Shown here: in pieces, positions 11,470 through 34,977 of the stretch
Position numbering within the stretch: the first letter of the stretch is position 1
How the letters are laid out: each line of letters opens with the position of its first letter
Source of the DNA: Synechococcus sp.
Lineage (GTDB): Bacteria > Cyanobacteriota > Cyanobacteriia > PCC-6307 > Cyanobiaceae
Reading direction: 5' to 3'
DNA length: 64,000 bases
NCBI GenBank assembly: GCA_047286215.1
Contig: JBJBBS010000001.1
Location: forward strand, 1,105,170 to 1,169,169
The notes under the pieces: generated by a model
Database searches by the model: none
Seen by the model: only the letters and a program-made list of their open reading frames with translations
What the model was told of the DNA's origin: nothing
Program-made: the position numbers and the translations under genes

Positions 11470-12438
11470 ATGGAGTTCATCGACTTGGCGACGCGTCAAA
11501 TGTCTCTGGCCTCAGCTCTCGCTGGATTGCTGATGCTGTTGATGGCCTGCTCAGGTAAAGGACAGATCTCTTCAGAAGATCGTGCCGCCTCAGCCAGTGA
11601 CGCACGCCCCAAGGTGCTAACCACCTTCACCATCCTGGCCGACATGGCCCGCAATGTCGCTGGTGATCGTCTGCGGGTTGAGTCCATCACGAAGCCCGGT
11701 GCTGAAATTCATGGCTATGAATTCACGCCGAGTGACATCGAGCGAGCATCCGGAGCCGATCTGATCATCGAAAACGGATTGGGTTTGGAGCTCTGGGCCA
11801 GACGTTTCACTGCCGCCGCGGGCGATGTTCCGACGGTGACGTTGACCGATGGGATCGAACCACTCCTGATTGCGGAGGATGCATATGCCGGACGGCCCAA
11901 TCCCCATGCGTGGATGTCTCCCAAGGCGGCCCTGCATTACGTCGATCAGCTTGTGGTGACTTTTTCTGCGCTTGACCCTCAGGGCGCAGAGGTTTATCAG
12001 AGCAATGGTGAGGCCTATAAGTCGAGGCTTCGAGATCTTGATGATGAGCTCCGACGGTCCCTGGCGACGTTGCCTGAGAGTCAACGGCTGCTGGTTAGTT
12101 GTGAAGGTGCTTTGAGCTATCTCGCCCGTGATTACGGTCTTCAGGAGGCCTATCTCTGGCCGGTGAATGCCGAAAGCCAGATCACACCACGCCGCATGGC
12201 GAGACTGATTGATCGTGTAAAGCAGGATCAAGTCCCTGCTGTCTTCTGTGAAACGACCGTGAGCGATCAGCCTCAGCGTGAAGTGGCCCGAGCCGCGGGA
12301 ACTCGCTTCGGAGGCAGTTTCTTTGTGGACTCTTTGTCAGATGACAACGGTCCCGCCCCCACCCTGCTCGATCTCCATCGCCACAATGTGAAACTCATTC
12401 GAGCTGGGCTGGGCTCACCCGCCGATCCAACCCCATGA
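11470..12438 (+). CDS. mntC: Mn/Zn ABC transporter substrate-binding lipoprotein, MntC type
   Basis: Lipobox LMAC; ligands 'EIHGYE', 'NPHAW', 'CEGA', 'DSL' (His/His/Glu/Asp); start trimmed. Confidence 0.85.
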   Translation: MEFIDLATRQMSLASALAGLLMLLMACSGKGQISSEDRAASASDARPKVLTTFTILADMARNVAGDRLRVESITKPGAEIHGYEFTPSDIERASGADLIIENGLGLELWARRFTAAAGDVPTVTLTDGIEPLLIAEDAYAGRPNPHAWMSPKAALHYVDQLVVTFSALDPQGAEVYQSNGEAYKSRLRDLDDELRRSLATLPESQRLLVSCEGALSYLARDYGLQEAYLWPVNAESQITPRRMARLIDRVKQDQVPAVFCETTVSDQPQREVARAAGTRFGGSFFVDSLSDDNGPAPTLLDLHRHNVKLIRAGLGSPADPTP

Positions 12439-13181
12439 CGATCCGGATCGCAGCAGAGCAGCTCTGCGTTGACTACAACGGCACCGTCGCCCTTTACGAC
12501 GCTTCGCTGACTCTCCCGGCAGGGTGCATTTGCGGCTTGGTGGGCATGAACGGTGCTGGTAAATCGACGCTTTTTAAGGCGCTCACAGGATTTGTGCGCC
12601 CATCGAGAGGTCGGATTCGCATTAATGGCGCCAAGGTGGCGAGAGCCCAACGCGAGCAGGCAGTTGCATACGTCCCCCAAAGTGAAGGGATCGATTGCGA
12701 TTTTCCAGTATCTGTCTGGGATGTGGTGATGATGGGTCGCTATGGAGCCATGAATTGCCTGCGAATCCCCAGGGAGTCGGATCGCATGGCCGTTCGCGCT
12801 GCTCTCGAACGCGTTGATCTTCTTGATTTACGCGACCGACCTCTGGCGGCACTCTCCGGTGGGCAGCGCAAGCGCACTTTTCTTGCGCGAGCCATTGCAC
12901 AACGCGCTTCAGTGCTTTTGCTCGATGAGCCATTCAACGGCGTGGACGTCCGCACCGAAAAACTGATGGCAGAGCTCTTCCTCCAGTTCCGCAGTCAGGG
13001 GTGCTCGATGTTGATCTCCACCCATGACCTCAGCCATGTGCGTGATTTCTGCGACCTCGTTGTTTTGATCAACAAAACCGTGTTGGCCTATGGAGAGACC
13101 TCCGAGGTGTTCACCCCTGAAAACCTGTCGCTTGCCTTCGGTGGCGTGCCTCCCGATCTTTTGCGTGGACACCCGCAATAA
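12435..13181 (+). CDS. mntA: Metal ABC transporter ATP-binding protein
   Basis: Walker A GMNGAGKST, LSGGQRKR, LLLDEP; 4-bp overlap with mntC. Confidence 0.9.
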   Translation: MTIRIAAEQLCVDYNGTVALYDASLTLPAGCICGLVGMNGAGKSTLFKALTGFVRPSRGRIRINGAKVARAQREQAVAYVPQSEGIDCDFPVSVWDVVMMGRYGAMNCLRIPRESDRMAVRAALERVDLLDLRDRPLAALSGGQRKRTFLARAIAQRASVLLLDEPFNGVDVRTEKLMAELFLQFRSQGCSMLISTHDLSHVRDFCDLVVLINKTVLAYGETSEVFTPENLSLAFGGVPPDLLRGHPQ

Positions 13182-13272
13182 GCAAAGGGGGATCTGATTT
13201 TCAACAGACGAGCGTGAGTCCGCAGCTTTGAGCAACCTGCTGGGACAATGATTGTGAGCTGGAGCCTCTGTC

Positions 13273-14106
13273 TTGCTGGAGTTGCTGCTAGAACCCCTGC
13301 GCCATGACTTTATGGTTCGTGCGCTGTTGATCAGCGCATTGGTCGGTGGGGTCTGTGGCTTGCTCTCCTGTTACATGACCCTGAAGGGCTGGGCCCTGAT
13401 GGGGGACGCGGTTTCCCATGCTGTGCTCCCCGGGGTGGTGCTGGCTTATGCCCTCGGATTGCCGTTTTCGCTCGGTGCCTTTGTGTTCGGCGTTGGTTCG
13501 GTGGCGACCATCGGTTTTGTGAAGCAGAAATCTCGGATCAAGGAAGACACCGTGATTGGACTGGTTTTCACAGGCTTCTTTGCGCTGGGTTTGGTGTTGG
13601 TCTCGAAGACCCGCAGCAACATTGATCTCACCCATGTTTTGTTTGGAAACGTTCTCGGCATCTCAGCAGCAGACATCAGTCAGACCTGGTGGATCTGTTC
13701 AGTGGTGGTGGCATTGCTGTTGCTTTTCAGGCGAGATCTGCTGCTCTTCTGTTTCGATCCAACCCACGCCCGATCGATCGGTATCAACACCGGCTTTCTT
13801 CACTACCTCCTTCTATCGGTTCTCTCGCTTGCTGCCGTGGCCGGTCTTCAGACCGTTGGCATCATTTTGGTGGTAGCGATGTTGGTGACGCCCGGAGCCA
13901 CGGCGTATTTGCTCACGGATCGCTTTGATCGCATGACCTGGCTTGCTGTCGGCAGCAGTGTCTTGTCGAGTGTCTTCGGTGTTTATGTGAGCTACTGGAC
14001 CGATAGTTCGACGGCCGGTTGCATCGTGCTGGTGCAGACCGGACTGTTTCTACTGGCGTTCCTGTTGGCTCCTCAGCATGGAATTTTGCGCCGATCCTTG
14101 CCCTGA
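13273..14106 (+). CDS. mntB: Metal ABC transporter permease (ABC-3)
   Basis: 'LMGDAVSHAVLPG', 'EDTVIG', 'FCFDP..ARSIG'. Confidence 0.9.
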   Translation: MLELLLEPLRHDFMVRALLISALVGGVCGLLSCYMTLKGWALMGDAVSHAVLPGVVLAYALGLPFSLGAFVFGVGSVATIGFVKQKSRIKEDTVIGLVFTGFFALGLVLVSKTRSNIDLTHVLFGNVLGISAADISQTWWICSVVVALLLLFRRDLLLFCFDPTHARSIGINTGFLHYLLLSVLSLAAVAGLQTVGIILVVAMLVTPGATAYLLTDRFDRMTWLAVGSSVLSSVFGVYVSYWTDSSTAGCIVLVQTGLFLLAFLLAPQHGILRRSLP

Positions 14107-14206
14107 TCGGAGGCATAAACGTGGCGCCAAAAGTGCCAATCAGAGTCTGTGGTCGGTTGTCTTGGCCGTAGCTAAAAACGACTTATTGCTGCCTCACGGA
14201 CTACTG

Positions 14207-14791
14207 ATGACGCCCCGTTCCGTTTTTCTGGGTACTGCTTTGGCGGTCAGCTGTTGGTGTGCTGCTCCCCTTCAGGCTGCTCCTGATGTTCAGGTGTTCA
14301 GCACGCAAGTGACGAAAAGCGAGGTGGATCAGGCCCAAGACGCTTGGTGCAATGCTTTGGTGTCGATCAGTGCAGCCTTTCAGGCCGATGGCTTTGAAGC
14401 TGCAAAAGCCAAAGCTGGTGCTGTCATTGATGCCGCCTATGCCTATCACTACGGGCCTGTTGCATTCAAGCCGACGTTGGCTCTGGGTGAAAGCACCTTC
14501 CGGCCAACACGTGAAGGCGCCCTTGCTTACTTCGTCGGGCCGGATCCCGATATTTCCGCCTTCGGCGAGAACCAGGGATTTGCCACGTACCGACATTGGA
14601 CCCAGTGCGAAGTTGACAATGACGTCGTTCAACTGTTCGGAAACACTGTCAACACCATGGGCTTGGTGACCATTACTGATGCCAATGGAGACTCCAGTGT
14701 TGTCGAGAAGACATGGAGCTACCTCCGTGACCGAGACGGAAGTCTCAGGATCGTCTTGCACCATTCATCGGTGCCCATCGACGCTCGTTGA
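14207..14791 (+). CDS. Exported SnoaL/NTF2-fold protein, candidate iota-class carbonic anhydrase
   Basis: Signal peptide; 'FKPTL', 'RPTREGALAYFVG', 'GFA', C-terminal 'LRIVLHHSSVP'. Confidence 0.7.
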   Translation: MTPRSVFLGTALAVSCWCAAPLQAAPDVQVFSTQVTKSEVDQAQDAWCNALVSISAAFQADGFEAAKAKAGAVIDAAYAYHYGPVAFKPTLALGESTFRPTREGALAYFVGPDPDISAFGENQGFATYRHWTQCEVDNDVVQLFGNTVNTMGLVTITDANGDSSVVEKTWSYLRDRDGSLRIVLHHSSVPIDAR

Positions 14792-14862
14792 TTCCACAGC
14801 GGTCGTCAAAGGCCGCTCCCATGGTGGAGAATGAACCCATCACCCCCTTGTTGATCAGCCTG

Positions 14863-15129
14863 ATGCTCCTGTCCAACCGTGCCATCATCCGGGGCTCCTT
14901 GGCCGTTGCGGCTGCTTTCACCCTTGTGGGAGCACAGTCGGTGAGCGCTCACCACGTCCCCGGCGACGACCACACCGGAACTCTTTTGACTGCGGATCCC
15001 TCTGCAACAGCCCAGGGCATGAAAACCATGTTCCCCACGAAAGCGGAAGCCGAAGCTGCGGCTAGCAACTTCGATTGTGAAGGTGCCCACCAGATGGGAG
15101 ACATGTGGATGCCTTGCTCTGAGCACTGA
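14863..15129 (+). CDS. Exported DUF3721-domain protein
   Basis: Signal peptide ending VSA|HHVPGDDH; C-terminal 'TKAEAEAAASNFDCEGAHQMGDMWMPC'. Confidence 0.75.
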   Translation: MLLSNRAIIRGSLAVAAAFTLVGAQSVSAHHVPGDDHTGTLLTADPSATAQGMKTMFPTKAEAEAAASNFDCEGAHQMGDMWMPCSEH

Positions 15130-15371: not shown

Positions 15372-15713
15372 GTGCGCTGCCTGCTCTCGCTTGCTCTCGC
15401 TTTGCTCATCAGTTTTTGGTCTCCGGTTCAGGTGTTCGCTGCTGATCTCACCCGTGGTGCTCAGCTGTTCAACTTGAACTGCGCTGCCTGCCATGCGGGG
15501 GGCGCCAATGTGCTGAAGAGCGAACGTTCCCTCAGCCAGGATGACCTTCAGGCCTATCTCCCCAACTATCTGAAGGAGCATGAATCAGCGATCGTCGCTC
15601 AGGTGACCTACGGACGCAACGCGATGCCTGCCTTCCTCGATATTTTGAGCGAGAAGGAAATCGAAGACGTTGCTGCCTACGTGGAAGATCAGTCCTTGAA
15701 CGGTTGGAGTTAA
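15372..15713 (+). CDS. petJ: Cytochrome c6 (class I)
   Basis: Signal peptide, CAACH heme motif, 'QVTYGRNAMPAF' axial Met. Confidence 0.85.
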   Translation: MRCLLSLALALLISFWSPVQVFAADLTRGAQLFNLNCAACHAGGANVLKSERSLSQDDLQAYLPNYLKEHESAIVAQVTYGRNAMPAFLDILSEKEIEDVAAYVEDQSLNGWS

Positions 15714-15726
15714 GCCTCGAGGTTGA

Positions 15727-16686
15727 ATGACGCGTCTCGCTACAGGATGGGCCATTTTTCAAGGCCTGCTGATTGAGGCGCTTCCCTTTTTGTTGCTGGG
15801 GGTGACCATTGCCGGGCTGGCTCGTTGGCTCGTCCCCCAGTCCACCTGGGTTCGTCGTCTTCCGCGTCATCCTCTGCTGGCACCGTTAGTTGGGGCTCTC
15901 TTAGGCTTTGCTCTGCCGGCTTGTGAATGCGGCAATGTTCCTGTCGCAAGACGACTTTTGGCCAGCGGGGCCCCGCTTGGAACCGGGTTCGGTTTTTTGT
16001 TTGCCGCGCCTGTTCTCAACCCCATTGTTTTGGCCAGCACCTGGGCTGCCTTCCCCGACAAGACCTGGCTGCTGTGGGCGCGTCCCGCTGGAGCCTTTTT
16101 GATTGCACTGTCATTAAGTGCACTGCTCGGTTTGTTGCCCGAAGCCAAGCTGCTTGAAACAGCATTGCTGGAAGAGCGCCGGATGAGTCAGCCCCTGTCG
16201 AGCGTCGGCCTACTCGAGCGCCGTGGTGGAGTGTTGGGGAGTGCTCCGTCTCCCGCTGGGAAAAGTGACGACAACCCTGGGATTACCCCGCGTCTTCTCA
16301 TCCAGCACAGCACCAAAGAATTTCTCAGCCTCCTCACCTTGTTGGTGTTAGGGAGTGCCTTGGCTGCGGCGGTTCAGACCTGGCTGCCTCGCAGTTGGCT
16401 ATTGGCCCTTGGCAGTGCACCGACGTTGTCGGTGATTGCGTTGATGCTCCTGGCGTTGGTGGTGTCGGTTTGCTCGAGTGTTGATGCTTTTTTAGCGCTT
16501 GGGTTTGCGGCTCAGGTCACGCCCGGTGCTCTGCTGGCTTTCCTGCTGTTGGGCCCTGTCGTGGATCTCAAGCTCGCTGGCTTATTCACGGTGTTGCTTA
16601 CGCCGCGAGCCATCGCGATCACGGCGGTCTCGGCGTCGCTCATGGTGCTGCTGATTGGCCAGTGGGTGAACCTTTTACAGCTGTGA
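15727..16686 (+). CDS. Permease, DUF318/ArsP_1 family
   Basis: 'EALPFLLLG', 'PACECGNVPV', 'CSSVDAF', 'LGPVVDLK'. Confidence 0.85.
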   Translation: MTRLATGWAIFQGLLIEALPFLLLGVTIAGLARWLVPQSTWVRRLPRHPLLAPLVGALLGFALPACECGNVPVARRLLASGAPLGTGFGFLFAAPVLNPIVLASTWAAFPDKTWLLWARPAGAFLIALSLSALLGLLPEAKLLETALLEERRMSQPLSSVGLLERRGGVLGSAPSPAGKSDDNPGITPRLLIQHSTKEFLSLLTLLVLGSALAAAVQTWLPRSWLLALGSAPTLSVIALMLLALVVSVCSSVDAFLALGFAAQVTPGALLAFLLLGPVVDLKLAGLFTVLLTPRAIAITAVSASLMVLLIGQWVNLLQL

Positions 16687-16701
16687 TGCCTGGTTGACCC
16701 G

Positions 16702-17391
16702 ATGACCTTCAGGCTGCGATTCAGGCGATCAGCTCTTCTCCCTCCTCTGGTTGTGGGGCTATGGGGGTGGGTGCTGCTGTGGAGCACCCTTTCGGGGAGA
16801 CTCGATCTTCTATTGAATGCCGCCTTTCATCCCGTCGTTGGCCTTGCGGGTGTGGTGTTGCTTGTGCTGGCATTGCTGCAGTTGCGTTGGGCCGGACACC
16901 ATCGCAACGTCCCCTCACCCAGGGGATGGTTGTTCTCAGGGTTCGTGGCTGTGGTGATTTTGCTGGTTCCTCCAGCCCCGTCCTTCAGCGACCTAGCCGC
17001 CAGCCGTCCCGACAGCTTTCCCGAAGCTCCTCGACTCAGTTTTTTCCTTCCTCCTGAGCAGCGAACGTTGACGGAATGGGTGCGGTTGCTGCGCAGCCAG
17101 CCTGATCCCGAACTGCATGCCGGTGACCCGGTGCGTATCAGTGGTTTTGTGCTGGCGCGTCCAGGAGAACCTCCCCAACTGGCGCGGCTCACCGTGCGTT
17201 GTTGCTTGGCAGATGCCACACCTGCTGGTCTTCTTATCGATTGGCCTTTGGATGCCAATCCAGAGGCCGATCAGTGGCTTGCCATTGAAGGAACGTTGAT
17301 TGTGCAGGAGCGTGATGGCGAACCGGTGAATGTGGTTCAACCCACAAGCATTCGCGCGATTCCGAGACCGGAGAGGCCGCTCGAGCCATGA
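16702..17391 (+). CDS. TIGR03943/DUF1980 family membrane protein
   Basis: Three N-terminal TMs, 'LARLTVRCCLADA', 'QWLAIEG'. Confidence 0.85.
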   Translation: MTFRLRFRRSALLPPLVVGLWGWVLLWSTLSGRLDLLLNAAFHPVVGLAGVVLLVLALLQLRWAGHHRNVPSPRGWLFSGFVAVVILLVPPAPSFSDLAASRPDSFPEAPRLSFFLPPEQRTLTEWVRLLRSQPDPELHAGDPVRISGFVLARPGEPPQLARLTVRCCLADATPAGLLIDWPLDANPEADQWLAIEGTLIVQERDGEPVNVVQPTSIRAIPRPERPLEP

Positions 17392-18779: not shown

Positions 18780-18794
18780 TGGGAATCGTTCTCA
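18780..18794. promoter_or_regulatory. Zur/Fur-like box
   Basis: TGGGAATCGTTCTCA immediately before the ABC ATPase start. Confidence 0.5.
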
Positions 18795-20300: not shown

Positions 20301-20319
20301 TGAGAATGATTATCATTCG
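20301..20319. promoter_or_regulatory. Zur box
   Basis: TGAGAATGATTATCATTCG, near-palindromic, about 20 bp upstream of the SBP gene. Confidence 0.75.
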
Positions 20320-21234: not shown

Positions 21235-21278
21235 GTAACGATCACTTTTAAATCCGTTAATTCCCTTTTTATTTCGTG

Positions 21279-23267: not shown

Positions 23268-23289
23268 GTCGATCCTCGTCGATTTGAAG

Positions 23290-26499: not shown

Positions 26500-26616
26500 T
26501 CATGCAGGACTTGGGCAGCCCAGGGATCTTGGCTTTCGTTGGCTGCCTTTCGATGGCCTGACTCGCCAAGACCATGGGTGCGTCAGGATCTTTTCAAGGT
26601 GTCGTCTTTGGGCGGT

Positions 26617-27357: not shown

Positions 27358-27381
27358 TAACCAGTCCGCAGTGGTGGGGGG

Positions 27382-28585: not shown

Positions 28586-29239
28586 TCACCCGTTGATCAT
28601 TGCTTCCAGGTTTTGCACCAGAGGGTTGCCGTTCCTCCACGCCTGATTGGGTTCGCAGCAGAGGCATGATTCTCCTTCATCGCAGGCTGCCGCTGCACGT
28701 TGCTCTGCATCCAGCTTCAAGAGTTCCTTGGTGTATGGCGCTCGGAGGTCCCATTCGCTCCAGGTTTTGACGCCTTGCTCATCGACATCTTCTGGGAAGG
28801 CGATTTGTAGGTGGAGCCAGCGTTTTTGGCTGACGGGTTTAGGGCTCACCAACCAGTCGTTGTCTGGGTCAGATCCGAGGGCTCTGGCCGTTGTCAACAT
28901 CTCGTCCACTTTGCATTGATCGTGTGGATGTCGCTTGTCTCGCCACTGAGTGAGCGATCTCATGCAGGCGTCGTTGGCAGCGACGCCCACGCGCAGGAGG
29001 CCATTGGCTTTGTCGGCGATTTCCTTTTCAGAGGTCATCGTGCGACGAATGCCCTTGGTGTCGGACCAACTTGGGTACGCCATCGGTTCAAAGAACTCTG
29101 CTTTGGTGAACCAGACCACCGATGGCGTGCGTGAGTCAGTGCTGAGTGGTTTGAGTGCGCGGGTCTTGATTAAAGGAAGCAATCGCGTGGCAGTTGTGTA
29201 ATGCCATGCGATTTCTTTGCTGTGGCCAAATCCCTTCAT
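28586..29239 (-). CDS. Hypothetical protein, possible ADP-ribosyltransferase-like fold
   Basis: 'AWHYTT..RL..LI....LKP' and 'VVWFT' strand motifs; C-terminal 'CLCC'. Confidence 0.55.
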   Translation of the reverse strand: MKGFGHSKEIAWHYTTATRLLPLIKTRALKPLSTDSRTPSVVWFTKAEFFEPMAYPSWSDTKGIRRTMTSEKEIADKANGLLRVGVAANDACMRSLTQWRDKRHPHDQCKVDEMLTTARALGSDPDNDWLVSPKPVSQKRWLHLQIAFPEDVDEQGVKTWSEWDLRAPYTKELLKLDAEQRAAAACDEGESCLCCEPNQAWRNGNPLVQNLEAMING

Positions 29240-29274
29240 TTGGCCAATGTAAATGAGACAATTCGCGTCCTTAA

Positions 29275-29293
29275 AAAATGATAATCATTCTCG
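29275..29293. promoter_or_regulatory. Zur box
   Basis: AAAATGATAATCATTCTCG between divergent genes. Confidence 0.7.
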
Positions 29294-29347
29294 GTTTATG
29301 ACTTCGTCGGCACTCGGATTGAAGGGGTGTCGTGTGTCTGACTGAGC

Positions 29348-29364
29348 GAGAATGGTTCTCATTC
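29348..29364. promoter_or_regulatory. Second Zur-like box
   Basis: GAGAATGGTTCTCATTC. Confidence 0.55.
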
Positions 29365-29426
29365 CCTGTGTTGATTGATGCGTATGCGCTTTACATCGTC
29401 GATGGATTGATGTTGATTGATTCTGG

Positions 29427-29612
29427 ATGATGAATCAAATCATGCCTGCTGCAATGGCTTGTGCTTGCCCGGAGTGTGTCTGTGACGTGCAGCCTTCCAC
29501 GGCTGTGGTTCGTGACGGTCAACACTTTTGCTCAGATGCTTGTGCAACAGGCCACCCCAATCATGAACCTTGTCATGGCAATGGTTCCTGTGGCTGTAAG
29601 TGCTCAGATTGA
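29427..29612 (+). CDS. bmtA: Bacterial metallothionein (BmtA/SmtA)
   Basis: 'CACPECVC', 'FCSDACATGH', 'CHGNGSCGCKC'. Confidence 0.95.
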   Translation: MMNQIMPAAMACACPECVCDVQPSTAVVRDGQHFCSDACATGHPNHEPCHGNGSCGCKCSD

Positions 29613-29738: not shown

Positions 29739-30605
29739 CTATTGATTCAAAGCTTCGATTTCCAGTGAGCAATAGGTGCCATCAGGAGTTCGGCCTTGTG
29801 TGCGCAAAGCCTTCACTTCTAAGGCTGCCGCACGTAGATCAGCTCTGAACACAGGATCGGTGTGGAGCTGTGCTACGGCGGCAGAACCAATGATCTGGCT
29901 GGCTTGCACATCAGTGAGCCAATGCACATTGCAGATGCTGCGGCTCTTTCCATATTCGATGCCGCGCGCCACCAATTGATCACGCCGTTCCGGTGCCACT
30001 TCACTCAACACCAACGCCCAGGCCCAGCCGGCGGCAGTGTGGCCTGATGGATAAGACCCATCCTTCCTGAGGCCTTCATCATCCTCAGGTGTGCACATGG
30101 GCTGGTCGTTGACGGTGAAGGGTCGAGGTCGTTGGTAGTGATTTTTGGCGCGATAAGTAGCAAGGCCGGCATCGGTGAGCGTTCGGTGCAGCAGGGTGTA
30201 CAAACGCGGTGTCTCCTCTTTGGAGATGGGTACGCCTAGAGCACAGGAATAGATGGATGCTGCAGCTGGGAAATTCAGATCGGCATCTCGCGCTGCCAAG
30301 TCCCAGCGCGGCGTGCCTCGAAGCGGGAAAGTGGCTTCCGCTGTTTCCACATCCAGCGTGTAAGCGGTGGAGTCGGCTTGGGGCGGAGCTGGTAGCAGTT
30401 CCAGTGAATTGGGAAGCGAGCTCGGGGGTAGGTATCCCTCCAGCAGGCCATATTTCAACTCTTTGAGATTGTCTGGAGACCCAACGTTGGACTCGCAATG
30501 TTGGGCTGGTTCAGCGGCAGCAGGCTCTCCCATCAGCATGATGGTTGCTGCAATGGCAAGCATCATGCTGGCGAGGCGCGTCGTAGCCATGTGGTGGCAT
30601 TTCAC
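29739..30605 (-). CDS. Class A non-specific acid phosphatase (PAP2), exported
   Basis: Motifs KxxxxRPRP, SYPSGH, SRxxxxxHWxxD; signal peptide. Confidence 0.9.
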   Translation of the reverse strand: MKCHHMATTRLASMMLAIAATIMLMGEPAAAEPAQHCESNVGSPDNLKELKYGLLEGYLPPSSLPNSLELLPAPPQADSTAYTLDVETAEATFPLRGTPRWDLAARDADLNFPAAASIYSCALGVPISKEETPRLYTLLHRTLTDAGLATYRAKNHYQRPRPFTVNDQPMCTPEDDEGLRKDGSYPSGHTAAGWAWALVLSEVAPERRDQLVARGIEYGKSRSICNVHWLTDVQASQIIGSAAVAQLHTDPVFRADLRAAALEVKALRTQGRTPDGTYCSLEIEALNQ

Positions 30606-30669
30606 TGCTTCGTAGGTAGCAATGCCTTAATCCATTGCCTACGAATGCGGTAACGACAGGGCTGAGCTC

Positions 30670-30697
30670 AAAAAAAACGCCCCTCTTCCAAGGGGCG
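30670..30697 (-). terminator. Rho-independent terminator
   Basis: CGCCCCT-TGGAAG-AGGGGCG followed by T8 on the minus strand. Confidence 0.75.
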
Positions 30698-30807
30698 CCA
30701 TCCGTGTTGTTGTTGTATTCAAAGCCCTCTCTTGCTTCTCGCCAAGCTTCAAAAAGTGACCAACCATGACTCAAGCCCTGTGAATCATTGGAGCGCTTGT
30801 CTCTCTA

Positions 30808-31089
30808 CTAGTCAGCCAGCCAACGGGTGATCACGGTGCCGTCATAGACATGGCCCGACGCTTCAACGACTGGTTTGGTTTCAGGAGCCATGAAGATGTC
30901 GTAAAGAACGTTTTCGGGGCCTTGAAACATCACGGTTGCTCGGGTGGGATCGTTCTGACAAACGCCGATGTAGAAGGTCTTGACTCCCATCGCCGTGAAC
31001 ATGGCTTGCTGCTCAGGCGCATGCATGTGATCGCGATAGCTCTCAAAGGTTGTGCTGAGCTTGAAGTCCAGAACTGTGGTTTCCGTCAT
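30808..31089 (-). CDS. DUF3764 family protein
   Basis: 'ETTVLDFKL..TF', 'GVKTFYIG', 'EASGHVY'. Confidence 0.8.
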   Translation of the reverse strand: MTETTVLDFKLSTTFESYRDHMHAPEQQAMFTAMGVKTFYIGVCQNDPTRATVMFQGPENVLYDIFMAPETKPVVEASGHVYDGTVITRWLAD

Positions 31090-31237
31090 GACATTGAGCT
31101 GTACCAGAAAATTGGAACACACCCAGTCAATGGCTGGAGTAATGACGCTGATTAGCTGTGAAGAGCATCGTTAACCATGGCCTGTGGGCCTGATCGACTC
31201 GCTTGAATGGGGTTAGAACCACACTTGCTTAGAGATC

Positions 31238-31771
31238 ATGCTCTCGACCCCAAGCTTTGTGTGTCCACTGGTCTCTCAGTCTGCTGGCAGTGTTGGAGCA
31301 CTGATGCTTTCAGTGTTTCTTTGTTCCACCTTGCCGGTGATGGCTCATGGTGGCGCCGGTGGACCCGAGACGATGCCCGATACGACGCATGCCAGCGGTC
31401 CACAGATCACGGTGTATCGGTCAGCCAGTTGTGGTTGTTGTACGCAGTGGGGTGAGCACCTTGCAACAGCAGGATTTCGCATCGATGACCAGGTGACCGA
31501 AGCGATGGCTGGTGTGAAAGAGCGGCAAGGCATCGCACCCGAGACGTCGTCCTGTCACACGGCGGTCGTTGAGGGATACGTCATTGAAGGACATGTGCCC
31601 GTCGCGTCGATTCAACGCTTGTTATCTGAACGTCCTGCGATTCGAGGACTGGTCGTGCCAGGCATGCCCATGGGCTCTCCTGGGATGGAGGTAAGAGGCG
31701 TTGATGCTGAGAGCTTTGATGTGATGGCCATCGCCCATGACGGCAGCTTGTCTGTGTTTGATCGTTACTGA
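31238..31771 (+). CDS. DUF411 (CopG-like) exported metal-binding protein
   Basis: 'SCGCC', 'SCHTA', 'EGHVP', 'PGMPMGSPGM'. Confidence 0.9.
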   Translation: MLSTPSFVCPLVSQSAGSVGALMLSVFLCSTLPVMAHGGAGGPETMPDTTHASGPQITVYRSASCGCCTQWGEHLATAGFRIDDQVTEAMAGVKERQGIAPETSSCHTAVVEGYVIEGHVPVASIQRLLSERPAIRGLVVPGMPMGSPGMEVRGVDAESFDVMAIAHDGSLSVFDRY

Positions 31772-31793: not shown

Positions 31794-32066
31794 TCAACGT
31801 TGTGGTTTTACAAGCATGGCGAGGCCTGACGCGGTAACCACGATGGTGAGTGCACCAAGAACGATGGGATACACCGGTTGGAGATTGATCCAGCCGAACT
31901 GGCCCGTGTGCACCTTGAGTAACCAGAACGCATCAATCCCCTGCTCCAACAACAGGCTGTAGAGCGATCCCGTGCTCGCTGTGATCAAGAGAGGAATAGA
32001 TGCAATCGGCACGATCCACCGGTGCAGCCGTCGTGCTTGTCGTTGCGTCGGTGCGCTCCGTTTCAT
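31794..32066 (-). CDS. PepSY-associated TM-helix protein
   Basis: 'RRLHRWI', 'TASTGSLY', 'LLKVHTG'. Confidence 0.8.
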   Translation of the reverse strand: MKRSAPTQRQARRLHRWIVPIASIPLLITASTGSLYSLLLEQGIDAFWLLKVHTGQFGWINLQPVYPIVLGALTIVVTASGLAMLVKPQR

Positions 32067-32272
32067 TGCTTTCGCAGTTGTTGGTGCAGTTCCTGTTCAT
32101 TCGCACAGGGCATCCAACGCGTGTTGTTTTGATGCGTGGTGCTGCAGCCCAGCTCTTCAGCTTTCTGTTGGGCTTCGGCTTCTGTGGCGTACAACCCTTT
32201 GCCATGGGCATGGGATGGAGAGCTGCTGAAGAGCAGGCTGACCAGTGAGATGACCAATGTGGAGAACGCCAT
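32063..32272 (-). CDS. Exported DUF3721 protein
   Basis: SHA|HGKGLYATEAEAQQKAEELGCSTTHQNNTRWMPC. Confidence 0.8.
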   Translation of the reverse strand: MAFSTLVISLVSLLFSSSPSHAHGKGLYATEAEAQQKAEELGCSTTHQNNTRWMPCANEQELHQQLRKQ

Positions 32273-32289
32273 GATCTCGAGTCAGTGAC

Positions 32290-32571
32290 CTACAAGCCTT
32301 CGCAGTGTTCGATGGCTTTCAAATAATGCATCCTGCCTGGGATACGGAGCCCTTGTGGATTGATGGCTGCACGCATCGCAATTTGCACGTCTACACACCT
32401 GTTGTAACGGTGGATTTTCACGGCCTGGGGAATCAGCAGGATGGCAATCGAGATCAGACTGAAGCAACTCAACGCTGACAGGATGAAGGAAGCACTGATC
32501 TGAAGAGTTGTTCGCCTTGTGGATGACTTCGTCGTGGTGTCATTCATGGGCGTGGATTGATGCTGGTGCAT
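32290..32571 (-). CDS. Single-TM hypothetical protein with two conserved-looking Cys
   Basis: TM segment, 'YNRCVD', 'AIEHCEG'. Confidence 0.6.
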   Translation of the reverse strand: MHQHQSTPMNDTTTKSSTRRTTLQISASFILSALSCFSLISIAILLIPQAVKIHRYNRCVDVQIAMRAAINPQGLRIPGRMHYLKAIEHCEGL

Positions 32572-32620: not shown

Positions 32621-33331
32621 TTAACCAAAGCCGCGGCTTGGTTGACGCTGGTTGTTGTCGACATTGAGGAAAGCGAGGTGATCCGTGGCCGGGTCGTAAA
32701 GGGTGTAGTGCTCTGCTGCACCGATACCGATCACGCTTCGCTTGGGCAGGGATTGTTCTTCTCTGTGCTCTCCGCTGTGATCAGTCACTTTGGATTCAAT
32801 CTGGCCGCCGGTCAGCTCCAGCCTGAATTGGCGACCGCTGCGGGCCGTGAACAGACGGTTGACGTCGAGGCGTGTGAGCCGATCCATCAGAATCAGGGGG
32901 GAGCTGGTTTCTGTCAGGTCATCAGCAACATCGGCTGAGCTGCCATGGATGAGTGCACAGTCGAGTTCGATGAATCCAAATTGCAGTGATGCCAGCCAAT
33001 CGAGATGGTCTGGATCCACGGCTGCCAACAAGTTGGACACAGAAGCCTCACCTTCTGCTTCCCTCAGAGCATCAGCCTTGCGTTCACCTCGGTAGCCACA
33101 TTCGGATAACAACTGGTCGTCTCTCCATCCATAAATGCAGTCAGGCTGGAGATCATCAGGCTTAGGACGCCTCAAGCGCTCCAGCAAGGCATTGCAAGAG
33201 GTGTGTGCTCCGACGAGGTCACCTAAAACAAACAGGTTGGCGACACCACGCTGACGCTTTATGTCGCGTTGAATCCGCTCGTAGAGATCCAGGTCTCCAT
33301 TCAGACCACTCACCAGTGCCCAGCGTTCCAT
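32621..33331 (-). CDS. Degenerate metallophosphoesterase-fold protein
   Basis: 'LVSGLNG', 'LGDLVG', 'LIHGS'; canonical metal-binding His motifs missing. Confidence 0.75.
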   Translation of the reverse strand: MERWALVSGLNGDLDLYERIQRDIKRQRGVANLFVLGDLVGAHTSCNALLERLRRPKPDDLQPDCIYGWRDDQLLSECGYRGERKADALREAEGEASVSNLLAAVDPDHLDWLASLQFGFIELDCALIHGSSADVADDLTETSSPLILMDRLTRLDVNRLFTARSGRQFRLELTGGQIESKVTDHSGEHREEQSLPKRSVIGIGAAEHYTLYDPATDHLAFLNVDNNQRQPSRGFG

Positions 33332-34149
33332 CAGCGCTCACACACGTGGCTGGCATCGTCGGCTCGTTCTGCATATTCGAAGCCGTGGCTGAGCCGCCAG
33401 GCAAAAACTTCGGGAAGGCCTGCTTCAACAATGGCGCGGCATGTTTTCGCGACGTCGTAGGCCACTTCGCGGATGCTCACGTCTCCCGTGCTGTCGTTGT
33501 GAATGACATAGGTGGCCTTGGTGTTGCCATGGCGCGGTTCTCCAACGGACCCTGCATTGACGATGCGCCGCATCGGCAGTGTGAGCTCCTGATCAACCGT
33601 CGATTGCGTGTTGTTGGCTTGTTGAACTCGAACGCGGATGCTGCCGCCACTGAGCTCTCGCACATAAGGCTGATGCGTGTGTCCGCAAAACAGGGTTTCT
33701 GCTCCTGCTGTTTCCACGCGTTCCAGTGCAGCGAAAGCATTCATGTCAGGCAGTAGATATTCGTGCTGACTGTTTGGACTGCCATGCACGAATAGCAACG
33801 TGTCCCTGCGCAGCGTCATGGGGAGTTCTGCCAAAAAAGCCTTGTTGGCGTCCGTCAGGACTTCGGCTGTCCAATGATGCGCACGATGCCCGCGGCGTTC
33901 CGCGAGTTGGGAGGGATAGCTGCATTCGCAGGCGTTCAAGCCATCGATGATGTCTTCATCCCAGCAGCCCTGGCAGGAGGCAATGCCGCGCTCCCTGACG
34001 AGCTCCACCACTTCGTTGGGTTGCGGTCCATACCCCACAAGATCGCCCAGGCAAGTGATGGTTTTAATTCCCTGGGAGTCAATATCCTCGAGCACCGCTT
34101 CCACGGCAGCCAAGTTCGCGTGCAAGCAGGAGATCACAGCGTGGTTCAT
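33331..34149 (-). CDS. Metallophosphoesterase (calcineurin-like), atypical
   Basis: 'SCLHAN', 'GDLVGYG', 'GCWDE', 'HGSP', 'GHTH', 'NAGSVGEPR'. Confidence 0.85.
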   Translation of the reverse strand: MNHAVISCLHANLAAVEAVLEDIDSQGIKTITCLGDLVGYGPQPNEVVELVRERGIASCQGCWDEDIIDGLNACECSYPSQLAERRGHRAHHWTAEVLTDANKAFLAELPMTLRRDTLLFVHGSPNSQHEYLLPDMNAFAALERVETAGAETLFCGHTHQPYVRELSGGSIRVRVQQANNTQSTVDQELTLPMRRIVNAGSVGEPRHGNTKATYVIHNDSTGDVSIREVAYDVAKTCRAIVEAGLPEVFAWRLSHGFEYAERADDASHVCER

Positions 34150-34155
34150 GGTGAA

Positions 34156-34941
34156 TCAGCCTTGTGTTGAGGATGTTTGAAGTTGGTCTTGCAGCTGCTG
34201 TTGCTGTAGCGCCAGCACGTCATCGTTCAGCAAACAGTCGTCAATCGTTGCTTGGATTCCCGCAGGATCCAGTGCCTTTCCTTGGACGACGAGGGCAGAG
34301 GTGCGATCTGGTCGTCCACTGGGAGGAGCCACATTGTTCAAAGGCAAAAACTGTGACTCCTGCTGACTGACCATCCAGTTACAGAAAAACGAACGACCAT
34401 CGGGGAGATTCATCAAGGCTTTGGCGCGGTACACATCGCCGAAGGCCCCGTTAACGAGTTCGAACCAGAAACTGCTGAGGCTGTTGGGATCCCAGACGCA
34501 GCTCTGAAGGCTGATCGTCCAAGCCTCAAGCTTGTTGAACTCCAGTGTGTCGTGGGCCGGCAAAACCGAATCCCGACCAAAGTGCAAGGTCTGATTCGGT
34601 TGCAGATCGAGCGCCTCTAGTCGCTCGCGGATGCTGTTTCCGTAGCCATCGATGCCCTTGGTTTTTGGAACGCGAAACTGTTGAACTTCAATCAGGGTGA
34701 GTGGGGATGCATCCAGCGCCTCGTCTCTTGAAGCAGATGCCTCCAGCGCGATGAGTTGAGGGATTTGATCCTTGAGTCGCGCCTGATCGATACCGCCATC
34801 CTCACCCTGTTCCAGCCCCTCAGGCCGATCTCCATCCAATCGCAGGAAGGCACAAGCACCGCCGTGTTGTTTGAGGGTTTCAAGCACCCAGGTGGTTTTG
34901 CCGCATCCGGGAGGCCCTGAGACCAGGCACACCTGACCCAT
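34156..34941 (-). CDS. COG0523/CobW-like P-loop protein with CobW_C domain
   Basis: Walker A GPPGCGKTT; C-terminal 'GDVYRAKAL...LVVQGKALD'. Confidence 0.7.
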   Translation of the reverse strand: MGQVCLVSGPPGCGKTTWVLETLKQHGGACAFLRLDGDRPEGLEQGEDGGIDQARLKDQIPQLIALEASASRDEALDASPLTLIEVQQFRVPKTKGIDGYGNSIRERLEALDLQPNQTLHFGRDSVLPAHDTLEFNKLEAWTISLQSCVWDPNSLSSFWFELVNGAFGDVYRAKALMNLPDGRSFFCNWMVSQQESQFLPLNNVAPPSGRPDRTSALVVQGKALDPAGIQATIDDCLLNDDVLALQQQQLQDQLQTSSTQG

Positions 34942-34962
34942 GGAACAACCTTCCTCTTGAAG

Positions 34963-34977
34963 TGGGAACCATTCTCA
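34963..34977. promoter_or_regulatory. Zur-like box
   Basis: TGGGAACCATTCTCA, 22 bp upstream of the COG0523-like start. Confidence 0.6.

What the first reader, a model, noticed from the sequence alone, without database searches (positions are those of the whole stretch)
11470..34977. A ~23-kb multi-metal (Mn/Zn/Co/Cu/Fe) homeostasis island with several uncharacterised gene modules
Seen: 13 consecutive plus-strand genes (11470-22394), then hupE with a B12 riboswitch, Crp, metallothionein, DUF411 and a six-gene minus-strand operon. At least seven Fur/Zur-like boxes occur (18780, 20301, 24063, 24103, 29275, 29348, 34963). Inference: a coordinated trace-metal system in which about half the genes (His-rich OMP, DUF318/DUF1980/propeller, DUF3721 x2, PepSY-TM, odd phosphoesterases, ART-like ORF) have no established function.
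Basis: partly seen in the sequence, partly recalled or inferred. Interest (0 to 1): 0.7.

Follow-up and report, generated by a model that had tools for sequence, protein, structure and literature searches.

The report
Zur-controlled zinc gene neighbourhood in Synechococcus
This stretch of a marine Synechococcus chromosome holds separately controlled manganese, cobalt and zinc genes; the zinc part sits behind five strong Zur repressor sites and includes one conserved three-gene operon not yet reported as zinc-regulated.

Summary
The gene content is real. There are 13 plus-strand genes, hupE behind a cobalamin riboswitch, a Crp-like regulator, metallothionein, DUF411 and a six-ORF minus-strand run.

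Five of the seven boxes (18780, 20301, 29279, 29347, 34963) are strong 7-1-7 Zur boxes (TGAGAAT-N-ATTCTCA). They are enriched over chance and conserved in other genomes. Those at 24063 and 24103 score at or below background here, but lie in a conserved crp promoter.

It is not one coordinated multi-metal system. It is a zinc (Zur) regulon core: znuCB, znuA plus a His/Asp-rich outer-membrane protein, the bmtA/217-aa pair, and a P-loop/phosphoesterase operon. Modules with other or unknown control lie beside it: MntCAB, and riboswitch-controlled HupE.

The left 13-gene block is syntenic in at least 11 Synechococcus genomes. The right part (28.4-35.1 kb) is a variable islet between osmC and a CAAD gene; one relative carries a Zur-boxed ZIP transporter there instead.

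New: a Zur box precedes the P-loop/phosphoesterase/pseudo-phosphoesterase triad in 7 of 7 lineages, and there is an unannotated 30-aa four-Cys gene.

No expression data were available.

The parts
11470..14106 (+). mntC-mntA-mntB: Mn2+ ABC importer (binding protein 11470-12438, ATPase 12435-13181, ABC-3 permease 13273-14106)
   Evidence: MntC-like protein matches Synechocystis MntC structure 1xvl at E 7e-100. The aligned columns carrying the His/His/Glu/Asp ligand motifs and the Cys pair are conserved (ligand identities from my own knowledge of 1XVL). Pfam ZnuA, ABC_tran, ABC-3. No Zur box and no conserved upstream motif.
14207..14791 (+). Periplasmic iota carbonic anhydrase (COG4337 type), directly downstream of mntB
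   Evidence: PDB 7c5v (Anabaena all2909 iota-CA) E 1.6e-46; 7c5x E 1.5e-67. NCBIfam 'metal-independent carbonic anhydrase' 188 bits, below the 350 equivalog cut-off. Catalytic Thr (KPT), Tyr 18 residues later (LAY) and His-x-Ser (HHSS) conserved, against residues defined in PMC8132391. N-terminal signal-like sequence.
14788..15129 (+). DUF3721 small secreted protein (copy a), followed by a terminator hairpin at 15170-15208
   Evidence: Pfam DUF3721 58 bits. Hairpin -21.4 kcal/mol, z -3.8, followed by a U run.
15372..15713 (+). Cytochrome c6-like protein
   Evidence: NCBIfam Cytc6PetJCyano 114.8 bits (cut-off 135); Pfam Cytochrome_CBB3. Detected only in some relatives (L001, L002, L007, L012-L015; not in L004, L005, L009-L011).
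15727..17391 (+). Two-component putative permease: DUF318/ArsP_1 (15727-16686) and DUF1980/TIGR03943 (16702-17391)
   Evidence: Pfam ArsP_1 194 bits and DUF1980_C 45 bits. TIGR03943 'putative permease subunit' 170 bits, above cut-off. Weak SO_0444 Cu/Zn efflux hit of 73 bits against a 300 cut-off. Syntenic in L001-L015.
17388..18773 (+). Membrane-anchored periplasmic beta-propeller protein, overlapping the DUF1980 stop and ending 7 nt before the znuC Zur box
   Evidence: AlphaFold pLDDT 91.5, pTM 0.88: TM helix 8-33, small beta domain, then propeller. Foldseek gives only generic propellers (TolB, lactonases, WD40; TM about 0.4). 364 homologues in Synechococcus, Prochlorococcus and Cyanobium, all unnamed. 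No invariant His.
18780..18794 (.). Zur box TGGGAATCGTTCTCA, 6 nt before the znuC ATG
   Evidence: 21.2 bits. Conserved at the same place in L001-L011.
18795..20277 (+). znuC (ATPase, 18795/18801-19508) and znuB (ABC-3 permease, probable start 19495, to 20277)
   Evidence: Pfam ABC_tran and ABC-3. Syntenic in L001-L015.
20301..20315 (.). Zur box TGAGAATGATTATCA overlapping the -10 of the znuA promoter
   Evidence: 23.2 bits. Promoter-like TGGACG-16-TATCAT at 20289-20316. A box is present 40-90 nt upstream of znuA in all 24 related loci.
20341..22394 (+). znuA (20341-21234) and a His/Asp-rich outer-membrane beta-barrel protein (21276-22394); terminator at 22425-22470
   Evidence: Pfam ZnuA 140 bits. 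Alignment to AztC/TroA-type structures shows a His/His/His/Asp ligand pattern and no His-rich loop. The OMP has a signal sequence, a C-terminal ...GTGVTIAF, and 19 His in 60 residues. A His/Asp-rich OMP ending in Phe follows znuA in every locus long enough to contain it (19 of 23; L002, L003 and L007 give no full ORF and L019 has the OMP but a poorer His run); the run varies in length. Hairpin -25.6 kcal/mol, z -5.3.
22632..23424 (-). Cobalamin riboswitch (23277-23424) controlling hupE (22632-23267), a predicted Co2+ importer
   Evidence: Rfam RF00174 53.5 bits; Pfam HupE_UreJ. The riboswitch travels with hupE in L001, L002, L012 and L014, even where hupE sits elsewhere in the block. Already described in the literature: PMC4284471.
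24063..24744 (+). Crp-family regulator (24139-24744) and its conserved promoter. A 9-nt inverted repeat TGAGAATCG...CGATTCTCA (24063-24071 and 24109-24117) brackets TTGCAT-18-TATAGT.
   Evidence: Pfam HTH_Crp_2 26.3 bits, NCBIfam PtrA 36 bits, both below cut-off. The upstream region is conserved in L004-L011, where the second element is CGAGATCGATTCTCA at 16.5 bits. In this window the elements score 9.5 and below threshold.
25205..25324 (+). Unannotated 30-aa Lys-rich four-Cys ORF (GTG 25232 to TGA 25324; MQLPKPQKKKGCKKSKCSKWKGGQCKCGRG), with a Zur-like element over its -10 (25205-25219)
   Evidence: Across 8 genomes, variable columns by codon position are 0/0/21 over 25 codons. Relatives carry TATAATGAGATGCATTCTCA (15.5 bits); the window version scores 10.5. 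Not in the protein collection and no Pfam hit.
25660..27783 (.). Genes with no metal assignment that interrupt the neighbourhood: 279-aa conserved protein (25660-26499, +), rsmE 16S rRNA methyltransferase (26539-27357, +), OsmC (27382-27783, -)
   Evidence: Pfam Methyltrans_RNA and OsmC; no hit for the 279-aa protein. Conserved next to the block in L001-L011 and L031.
28586..29612 (.). Divergent pair: 217-aa protein with a C-terminal C-x5-C-x-CC (28586-29239, -) and metallothionein bmtA (29427-29612, +), with two Zur boxes between them (29279-29293 and 29347-29361)
   Evidence: Pfam Metallothio_Pro 54 bits. Boxes score 21.1 and 21.2 bits. The same divergent pair with two boxes (20.5 and 14.1 bits) occurs in L032 at 54% identity. 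Only 24 homologue clusters exist for the 217-aa protein. bmtA promoters with two Zur boxes are catalogued in PMC9337993 Suppl. Table 6.
29739..31771 (.). PhoC-like class A acid phosphatase (PAP2, 29739-30605, -), DUF3764 (30808-31122, -), DUF411 protein (31238-31771, +)
   Evidence: Pfam PAP2, DUF3764, DUF411. NCBIfam APhasePhoC 191 bits against a 430 cut-off. No Zur box is adjacent.
31794..32571 (-). Three small membrane or secreted ORFs at the 3' end of the minus-strand run: 93-aa (32290-32571), DUF3721 copy b (32063-32272), 2-TM PepSY_TM-like 90-aa (31794-32066)
   Evidence: DUF3721 55 bits; PepSY_TM only 17.8 bits. The DUF3721-90aa-PAP2 linkage recurs in L031 beside an RND efflux pump. The 93-aa homologue lies upstream of the triad in RCC307. 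An automatic gene call on the identical contig (L025) placed plus-strand ORFs here instead.
32621..34977 (-). Conserved triad with its Zur box (34963-34977): P-loop + CobW_C-like 261-aa protein (34156-34941), Cys-substituted metallophosphoesterase (33331-34149), degenerate pseudo-phosphoesterase paralogue (32621-33331)
   Evidence: Box scores 21.2 bits here. It scores 18.5-22.6 bits at 20-60 nt upstream of the first gene in L027 (RCC307), L028, L030, L033, L034 and L035, and 19.9-21.6 with a matrix built without the triad site. Gene order is identical in all. The 236-aa protein matches the MPE at E 2e-10 but lacks the GHTH and DxH ligands. The MPE has invariant C-x-H in place of D-x-H and G-C-W-D in place of G-N-H-D, plus a CxxC...CxC cluster.

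Best explanation
The region is a chromosomal neighbourhood of marine Synechococcus in which independently regulated metal modules lie side by side. Its organising element is a zinc (Zur) regulon.

INFERRED MECHANISM, from box position and the WH8102 model (not measured here). When zinc is sufficient, Zn-loaded Zur binds 7-1-7 operators (TGAGAAT-N-ATTCTCA) and acts at four places:
1. At the znuA promoter, over the -10. This shuts off ZnuA and the co-transcribed His/Asp-rich outer-membrane protein, which most likely captures and passes Zn2+ across the outer membrane.
2. Immediately before znuC. This blocks znuCB, either at a promoter inside the propeller gene or as a roadblock to read-through from the cyt c6/DUF318/DUF1980/propeller genes.
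3. Upstream of the P-loop/phosphoesterase/pseudo-phosphoesterase operon. I infer this is a zinc-limitation-induced cytoplasmic phosphoesterase complex, with metal loading or assembly helped by the nucleotide-binding subunit.
4. Between bmtA and the 217-aa gene. As shown in WH8102, Zur bound there would activate metallothionein at high zinc.

OTHER MODULES. These run separately.
- MntCAB imports Mn2+ and is followed in one unit by a periplasmic iota carbonic anhydrase that needs no zinc.
- HupE imports Co2+ under feedback from a cobalamin riboswitch.
- DUF411, the PAP2 phosphatase and DUF3764 have no identified control.

ORIGIN.
- The left 11 kb is an old syntenic block.
- The 28.4-35.1 kb part is a variable islet between osmC and a CAAD gene that collects different zinc-related cargo in different strains.

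SHOWN: the sequence features, their enrichment, and their conservation across genomes.
For: - Motif enrichment: 11 matches against 1.82 expected, 0 of 100 shuffles as high.
- Five 21-23-bit sites, all intergenic and next to zinc-type genes.
- Footprinting: znuA box in 24 of 24 loci and znuC box in L001-L011. Triad box in 7 of 7 lineages, including subcluster 5.3 strain RCC307, also under a leave-one-out matrix. bmtA/217-aa pair with two boxes in L032.
- The -10 of the znuA promoter lies inside the box, as reported for WH8102.
- In WH8102, SynZur binding, znuABC repression and bmtA activation were shown experimentally (PMC9337993). Published bmtA boxes match this motif.
- The outer-membrane protein with a variable His/Asp run follows znuA wherever the locus extends far enough.
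- MntC ligand motifs match the Synechocystis structure. Iota-CA catalytic residues are conserved.
- Riboswitch 53.5 bits, and it co-moves with hupE.
- Terminators after DUF3721a and after the OMP define transcription units.
- Variable islet: a ZIP transporter with an 18.9-bit box in L009, PLD-like and chromate-transporter genes in L010, and the 217-aa gene alone in L004 and L031.
Against: - No expression or binding data exist for this strain. The only transcript runs found were metatranscriptomes holding 0-8% of the words.
- The experimentally defined WH8102 Zur regulon has only eight genes and no reported triad. I could not establish whether WH8102 carries the triad.
- The weight matrix was trained on the window's own five sites, so their scores here are circular. 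The independent support is the cross-genome conservation and the leave-one-out test.
- Fur-family operators resemble each other, so another Fur paralogue could bind some sites.
- Orthology of the OMP to synw0972, and of the 217-aa protein to synw0360, is inferred from position only.
- The functions proposed for the OMP, the triad and the DUF318/DUF1980/propeller set are inference.
Confidence: 0.7

Rival explanations
1. One reading: one coordinated multi-metal (Mn/Zn/Co/Cu/Fe) homeostasis island, in which all roughly 30 genes respond together through Fur/Zur-type boxes.
For: Metal-related genes are unusually dense. The 13-gene block is syntenic in many genomes. hupE stays within the block even when its position changes. 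Weak Zur-like half-sites sit in the crp promoter, so a regulator cascade is conceivable.
Against: Strong boxes occur at only four promoters, all zinc-type. mntC upstream regions share no motif. hupE has its own riboswitch. rsmE and osmC interrupt the region. The right third is not conserved as a linked unit. No ferritin or iron transporter lies in this window.
Confidence: 0.12
2. The boxes are iron-Fur (or another Fur paralogue) operators, and the region responds mainly to iron rather than zinc.
For: Fur and Zur operators are similar AT-rich palindromes. In relatives a related element (15.5 bits) lies between a ferritin gene and the four-Cys ORF. L012 and L014 carry a Fur-like element upstream of mntC.
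Against: The strong boxes precede the genes that SynZur was shown to bind and regulate in WH8102 (znuA, znuC, bmtA). They fit the published cyanobacterial Zur motif and the listed bmtA boxes. No iron-uptake gene in the window carries one.
Confidence: 0.08
3. The whole 23 kb is a horizontally acquired mobile genomic island carrying metal-resistance cargo.
For: The content between osmC and the CAAD gene differs between strains. In RCC307-like genomes the triad lies next to rsmE with none of the intervening genes.
Against: There is no tRNA in the window. No integrase or transposase was found, and no flanking direct repeats. GC is 0.53-0.60, like the flanks. The left block is vertically conserved across clades.
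Confidence: 0.08

Closest known systems
Zur regulon of Synechococcus sp. WH8102 (Mikhaylina et al. 2022, PMC9337993)
   Same: Same operator type. A Zur box overlaps the znuA -10. znuA is followed by an uncharacterised co-transcribed gene. bmtA has two upstream boxes and a divergent uncharacterised neighbour.
   Different: Here znuC-znuB-znuA run in one direction with two separate boxes; WH8102 has a divergent pair sharing one box. The two bmtA boxes are 68 nt apart start to start, one near each divergent gene, rather than adjacent. An additional boxed operon (the P-loop/phosphoesterase triad) is not among the eight WH8102 genes.
Zur regulon of Anabaena sp. PCC 7120 (Napolitano et al. 2012, as summarised in PMC3323870)
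   Same: 7-1-7 palindromic operator. The regulon contains a ZnuABC system, outer-membrane proteins, and putative nucleotide-dependent metallochaperones.
   Different: The Anabaena outer-membrane members are TonB-dependent receptors, and its chaperones are canonical COG0523 proteins. Here the OMP is a small barrel with a His/Asp-rich loop, and the P-loop protein fails COG0523 criteria.
Synechocystis MntCAB manganese importer (PDB 1xvl)
   Same: E 7e-100 to MntC. Ligand motifs and the Cys pair are conserved. Same three-gene ABC set.
   Different: Here it is followed in the same unit by an iota carbonic anhydrase and a DUF3721 protein. Its regulator is unknown.
Iota carbonic anhydrase, COG4337 type (Hirakawa et al. 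2021, PMC8132391)
   Same: E 1.6e-46 to the Anabaena enzyme. Thr/Tyr/His/Ser catalytic set present. Signal peptide, as in most bacterial members. The paper already notes COG4337 genes in Synechococcus CC9605 and WH7805.
   Different: Its conserved position directly after mntB, between manganese and zinc importers, does not appear in the passages of that paper I read.
HupE/UreJ cobalt transporter under a B12 riboswitch in marine cyanobacteria (reviewed in PMC4284471)
   Same: Same gene with the same riboswitch directly upstream.
   Different: Nothing material. This module is already known.
AztABCD zinc importer with the periplasmic propeller chaperone AztD (from my own knowledge; not checked in a paper here)
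   Same: The ZnuA here is closest in NCBIfam to AztC, with a His3Asp-type pattern and no His-rich loop. A periplasmic beta-propeller gene sits immediately upstream of the transporter genes.
   Different: The propeller has no sequence match to any family, AztD is not among the top 50 structural matches, and no His is invariant in the family. So a zinc-chaperone role is not supported.

Membership tests
Cyanobacterial Zur box | 7-1-7 inverted repeat matching TGA(G/T)AAT-N-ATT(C/A)TCA | tested here: met
   Five sites of 21-23 bits at 18780, 20301, 29279, 29347 and 34963. They match the published motif NTNANAATGATNATCATNTNAN and the listed bmtA boxes. The sites at 24063 and 24103 do not meet it in this window.
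Cyanobacterial Zur box | Located in the promoter of zinc-homeostasis genes and conserved in orthologous promoters | tested here: met
   znuA 24 of 24 loci; znuC 11 loci; triad 7 of 7 lineages; bmtA pair in L032. The -10 lies inside the znuA box.
Cyanobacterial Zur box | Zinc-dependent binding by Zur and zinc- or zur-dependent transcription | not testable with these tools
   No culture transcriptome of this strain was found. Shown only for WH8102 orthologues (PMC9337993).
ZnuABC / cluster A-I metal ABC importer | ZnuA-family binding protein, ABC-3 permease and ABC ATPase encoded together | tested here: met
   Pfam ZnuA 140 bits, ABC-3 150 bits, ABC_tran 104 bits.
ZnuABC / cluster A-I metal ABC importer | Zinc-type ligand set (three His, with or without Asp) in the binding protein | tested here: inconclusive
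   Alignment to 8svc and 5kzj places His at DPH, DPHLW and TGH, and Asp at VADG. Similarity is low (E 5e-16), and there is no His-rich loop.
MntC manganese-binding protein | His/His/Glu/Asp ligands and the Cys pair of Synechocystis MntC | tested here: met
   EIHGYE, NPHAWMSP, SCEGA, VDSLS and FCE are all aligned and conserved. Ligand identities come from my knowledge of 1XVL.
Iota carbonic anhydrase (COG4337) | Homology to solved iota-CA, plus catalytic Thr106, Tyr124, His197 and Ser199 (all2909 numbering) | tested here: met
   E 1.6e-46 to 7c5v. KPT, LAY at +18, and HHS are aligned. The NCBIfam score of 188 is below the 350 equivalog cut-off.
Cobalamin riboswitch (RF00174) | Covariance-model score above the Rfam gathering threshold, positioned 5' of the regulated gene | tested here: met
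   53.5 bits against 31.5, full-length model match, 10 nt upstream of hupE.
Bacterial metallothionein BmtA/SmtA | Pfam Metallothio_Pro above threshold | tested here: met
   54.1 bits against 33.
COG0523 / G3E metallochaperone GTPase | Full G3E GTPase domain with Walker A, the CxCC metal motif and a guanine-specificity motif | tested here: not met
   Walker A GPPGCGKT is present. There is no CxCC, and the N-terminal domain is only about 110 aa. There is no cobW Pfam hit, and the ZigA NCBIfam hit is 14.9 bits against 600.
COG0523 / G3E metallochaperone GTPase | Profile-level homology to the large COG0523 family | tested here: not met
   A profile search of 1.84 billion representatives found only 150 proteins. 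None exceeds 317 aa (most full-length ones are 230-300 aa, the rest fragments), and none has canonical COG0523 length. The only link is CobW_C at 25 bits against a 22 cut-off.
Calcineurin-like metallophosphoesterase | Five motifs: DxH, GDxxDxG, GNH[D/E], H, GHxH | tested here: inconclusive
   33331-34149: Pfam Metallophos_2 80 bits and 3rqz E 4e-26. However, motif I is CxH and motif III is GCWD, invariantly in 7 genomes. 32621-33331 lacks motifs I, III and V and is not a member by motif.
AztD-type periplasmic zinc chaperone | Propeller fold specifically similar to AztD, with conserved His/Asp zinc sites | tested here: not met
   A propeller fold is predicted, but only generic matches were found, with AztD absent from the top 50. 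No His is invariant.
   No Pfam, NCBIfam or PDB sequence or profile hit. The model was unusable at pLDDT 44.6.
Mobile genomic island | tRNA or att flanks, a recombinase, atypical composition | tested here: not met
   No tRNA, no flanking repeats, GC like the surroundings.

The most novel reading that the evidence does not exclude
Marine picocyanobacteria may have a larger zinc-limitation response than the eight-gene WH8102 model. It would add three things.
1. A Zur-repressed cytoplasmic machine found, as far as I looked, only in picocyanobacteria. It consists of a truncated P-loop/CobW_C protein, a metallophosphoesterase whose two metal sites each gained a Cys ligand, and an inactive paralogue. 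It would act as a zinc-sparing or zinc-reallocating phosphoesterase.
2. A Zur-to-Crp regulatory cascade.
3. A 30-aa four-Cys peptide as a new small zinc-handling protein.
Probability: 0.3. Interest if true: 0.6.

Novelty: new variant of a known kind. Interest (0 to 1): 0.45.

Why it matters
Zinc is scarce in the open ocean, and marine Synechococcus needs it for carbon and phosphorus acquisition. The only experimentally defined Zur regulon in this group (WH8102) is very small.

This window suggests that many strains place further genes behind the same operator:
- a His/Asp-rich outer-membrane protein, a candidate for the unknown outer-membrane step of zinc entry;
- a conserved nucleotide-binding/phosphoesterase triad of unknown role.

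It also shows a zinc-free carbonic anhydrase kept next to the manganese and zinc importers.

These are concrete, cheap targets for knock-outs and zinc-shift experiments. The variable islet could also serve as a marker of strain-level adaptation to metal regime.

Most individual modules are already known, so the gain is an extension rather than a new principle.

Tried and rejected
- AztD-like zinc chaperone for the propeller: the structure was predicted with confidence, but only generic propeller matches were found and no His is conserved. Rejected as unsupported.
- ART fold for the 217-aa protein: there were too few homologues, the model was unusable, and no profile hit was found. Left open.
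- Canonical COG0523 identity for the 261-aa P-loop protein: rejected.
- A shared regulatory motif upstream of mntC: alignment of 10 upstream regions found none.
- Transcript evidence: only metatranscriptome contigs holding 0-8% of the words were found, so no reads were laid.
- Literature on DUF318/DUF1980, COG0701/COG3689 and TIGR03943: nothing relevant. Nothing on Zur plus metallophosphoesterase in Synechococcus. ZepA (PMC10957091) is unrelated to these genes.
- A zur/fur gene in the window: none found by a crude motif filter (two CxxC plus HxH) on ORFs.
- Mobile-island signatures: none.
- The 16-bit box at 22280 inside the OMP gene: not conserved in relatives, so treated as chance.
- Naming the strain: the sources hide names. 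The only fact obtained is that the window's proteins lie on a 2,528,141-bp NCBI contig.

Full report
WHAT IS THERE

The window has about 55% GC. Its proteins are 60-95% identical to those of marine Synechococcus subcluster 5.1 strains. They occur on a 2,528,141-bp NCBI contig.

From 11470 to 22394 there are 13 plus-strand genes (Pfam, NCBIfam):
- an MntC-like binding protein, an ABC ATPase and an ABC-3 permease;
- a 194-aa secreted protein;
- DUF3721;
- a cytochrome c6-like protein;
- a DUF318/ArsP_1 permease and its TIGR03943/DUF1980 partner;
- a 461-aa protein without any family match;
- znuC, znuB and znuA;
- a 372-aa protein with a long His/Asp/Glu-rich stretch.

Downstream lie:
- hupE (minus strand) behind a Cobalamin riboswitch (53.5 bits);
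- a weak Crp-family regulator;
- a conserved 279-aa protein, rsmE and osmC;
- a 217-aa orphan divergent from a metallothionein;
- a PAP2 phosphatase, DUF3764 and DUF411;
- six tightly spaced minus-strand ORFs.

- The ORF after mntB (14207-14791) is an iota carbonic anhydrase of the COG4337 type. It matches the Anabaena enzyme 7c5v at E 1.6e-46. The four residues shown by mutagenesis to matter (Thr106, Tyr124, His197, Ser199) align to KPT, LAY and HHS. That enzyme works without metal. The same paper already noted COG4337 genes in Synechococcus CC9605 and WH7805.
- The MntC-like protein matches Synechocystis MntC at E 7e-100, with the ligand motifs and Cys pair conserved.
- The ZnuA is only distantly related to solved structures. 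It shows a His/His/His/Asp pattern like AztC/TroA and has no His-rich loop.
- The PAP2 protein resembles the class A acid phosphatase PhoC (191 bits, below cut-off).
- The 461-aa protein is predicted with high confidence (pLDDT 91.5). It has a membrane anchor, a small beta domain and a beta-propeller. Structural matches are generic: TolB, lactonases and WD40 proteins, at TM about 0.4. The family has no invariant His. I therefore do not file it as an AztD-like zinc chaperone.
- The 217-aa protein stays unassigned. The 'ART-like' label could not be tested.

THE BOXES

- The pattern GAGAATNNTTCTCAT with up to two mismatches occurs 11 times against 1.8 expected.
- Read as a 7-1-7 palindrome, five sites score 21-23 bits, and the next best site in 64 kb scores 16. 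They lie:
  - 6 nt before znuC;
  - over the -10 of a promoter-like site before znuA;
  - twice between the 217-aa gene and bmtA;
  - about 20 nt before the first gene of the minus-strand run.
- The matrix came from these same sites, so the real test is conservation.
  - The znuA box is present in all 24 related loci, from Synechococcus to Cyanobium and Vulcanococcus.
  - The znuC box is present in L001-L011.
  - The bmtA/217-aa pair with two boxes recurs in a lineage only 54% identical.
- The motif agrees with the cyanobacterial Zur motif and with the bmtA boxes listed by Mikhaylina et al.. That study showed, in WH8102, zinc-dependent Zur binding, repression of znuABC and neighbouring unknown genes, and activation of bmtA and its neighbour.
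They are not random, though. They are the two arms of a 9-nt inverted repeat (TGAGAATCG...CGATTCTCA) bracketing a conserved TTGCAT-18-TAnAGT promoter of the crp-like gene. In relatives L004-L011 the second arm is a 16.5-bit box.

THE TRIAD

The first three genes of the minus-strand run are always found together and in the same order: in RCC307 (subcluster 5.3), in a 2.59-Mb complete genome, in a SAG, and in three metagenome contigs. In all seven lineages a box of 18.5-22.6 bits lies 20-60 nt upstream. A matrix built without the triad site still gives 19.9-21.6 bits.

- First protein. It has a Walker A motif and a weak CobW_C match. It has no CxCC motif and only about 110 residues of NTPase domain. 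A profile search of 1.84 billion representatives found just 150 relatives. None exceeds 317 aa and none has canonical COG0523 length. One source calls it a 'predicted ATPase specific for cyanobacteria'.
- Second protein. It is a metallophosphoesterase (3rqz, E 4e-26). The Asp of motif I and the Asn of motif III are both replaced by Cys, and a CxxC...CxC cluster is inserted. All of this is invariant in seven genomes.
- Third protein. It is a paralogue (E 2e-10) that has lost most metal ligands.
- Downstream ORFs. The three small ORFs (93-aa, DUF3721b, 2-TM protein) are not fixed partners. In RCC307 the 93-aa homologue lies upstream. The DUF3721/2-TM/PAP2 trio recurs elsewhere beside an RND pump.

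I found no paper linking this triad to Zur.

SYNTENY AND ISLAND STATUS

- The block from mntC to the outer-membrane gene is colinear in at least 11 genomes. Small differences exist: cytochrome c6 or iota-CA absent in some, and hupE with its riboswitch relocated inside the block in L012 and L014.
- A His/Asp-rich run of varying length and a barrel-type C-terminus ending in Phe mark the gene after znuA in every locus long enough to contain it.
- The segment between osmC and the CAAD gene differs by strain. There are 6.7 kb of cargo here. L009 has a ZIP transporter with an 18.9-bit box. L010 has PLD-like and chromate-transporter genes. L004 has the 217-aa gene alone.
- In RCC307-like genomes the triad sits next to rubrerythrin and rsmE.
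- There is no tRNA, recombinase, flanking repeat or GC shift.
- So the left part is an old syntenic block and the right part is a variable islet. Neither is a mobile element.

TRANSCRIPTION UNITS (INFERRED)

Hairpins followed by U runs sit after DUF3721a and after the outer-membrane gene. Gene spacing then suggests four units:
- mntCAB-iotaCA-DUF3721;
- cyt c6-DUF318-DUF1980-propeller, possibly continuing into znuCB across the box;
- znuA-OMP;
- riboswitch-hupE.

mntC upstream regions share no motif.

VERDICT

- The interpretation overreaches in calling the region one coordinated multi-metal system. It under-reads several genes.
- The best-supported picture is a Zur regulon core flanked by independently controlled Mn and Co importers and unassigned genes.
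- The known parts are MntCAB, ZnuABC with Zur boxes, bmtA with two boxes, and HupE with a riboswitch.
- The new parts are the boxed triad, the conserved placement of iota-CA, the crp promoter repeat and the small four-Cys gene.
- None of the regulation is measured for this strain.

Noticed in passing
window 25205-25324 (+): Unannotated 30-aa ORF (MQLPKPQKKKGCKKSKCSKWKGGQCKCGRG) conserved in 8 genomes, with all 21 variable columns at third codon positions. Its -10 overlaps a Zur-like element (15.5 bits in relatives, 10.5 here). In relatives it is divergent from a ferritin gene that this window lacks.
   Followed up: partly
window 24063-24117: 9-nt inverted repeat TGAGAATCG / CGATTCTCA, 37 nt apart, brackets the -35/-10 of the crp-like gene and is conserved in L004-L011 and L031. 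Each arm is a perfect Zur half-site. Whether Zur or the Crp protein itself binds is unknown.
   Followed up: partly
window 33331-34149 (-): The metallophosphoesterase has Cys in place of the motif I Asp and the motif III Asn, plus a CQGCW...CEC cluster and a C-terminal HVCER. All are invariant in seven genomes. This hints at an unusual metal centre.
   Followed up: partly
L009 19398-20204: A relative carries a ZIP-family transporter (Pfam 93.7 bits) with an 18.9-bit Zur box just upstream, at the same osmC-CAAD islet. This echoes the boxed ZIP gene that Barnett et al. 2012 reported for CC9311.
   Followed up: partly
window 32000-32478: On the identical Logan contig (L025), the automatic gene call placed two plus-strand ORFs where the minus strand encodes DUF3721b (Pfam 55 bits) and the 93-aa protein. 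This is a likely mis-annotation.
   Followed up: yes
window 959-1606 (-): A Cu/Zn superoxide dismutase (Sod_Cu, 90 bits) lies about 10 kb upstream of the finding, next to a LysR regulator (3073-3996). It is another metal enzyme outside the stated coordinates.
   Followed up: no
window about 10250-10464 (+): A small zinc-ribbon-like ORF (…[28 protein letters not shown]…) lies just upstream of mntC. The same gene sits directly upstream of mntC in L012, L014 and L015.
   Followed up: no
window 22280-22294: A 16-bit Zur-like palindrome lies inside the 3' end of the outer-membrane gene. It is not conserved in relatives and is probably chance.
   Followed up: yes
L012 999 and L014 (about 50 nt upstream of mntC): A Fur-box-like element (TTTTGAAAATCATTAACA) precedes mntC in two relatives but not in this window. 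This suggests lineage-specific control of the Mn importer.
   Followed up: no
window 25660-26499 (+): A 279-aa secreted protein conserved beside rsmE in all relatives has no family match at all.
   Followed up: no
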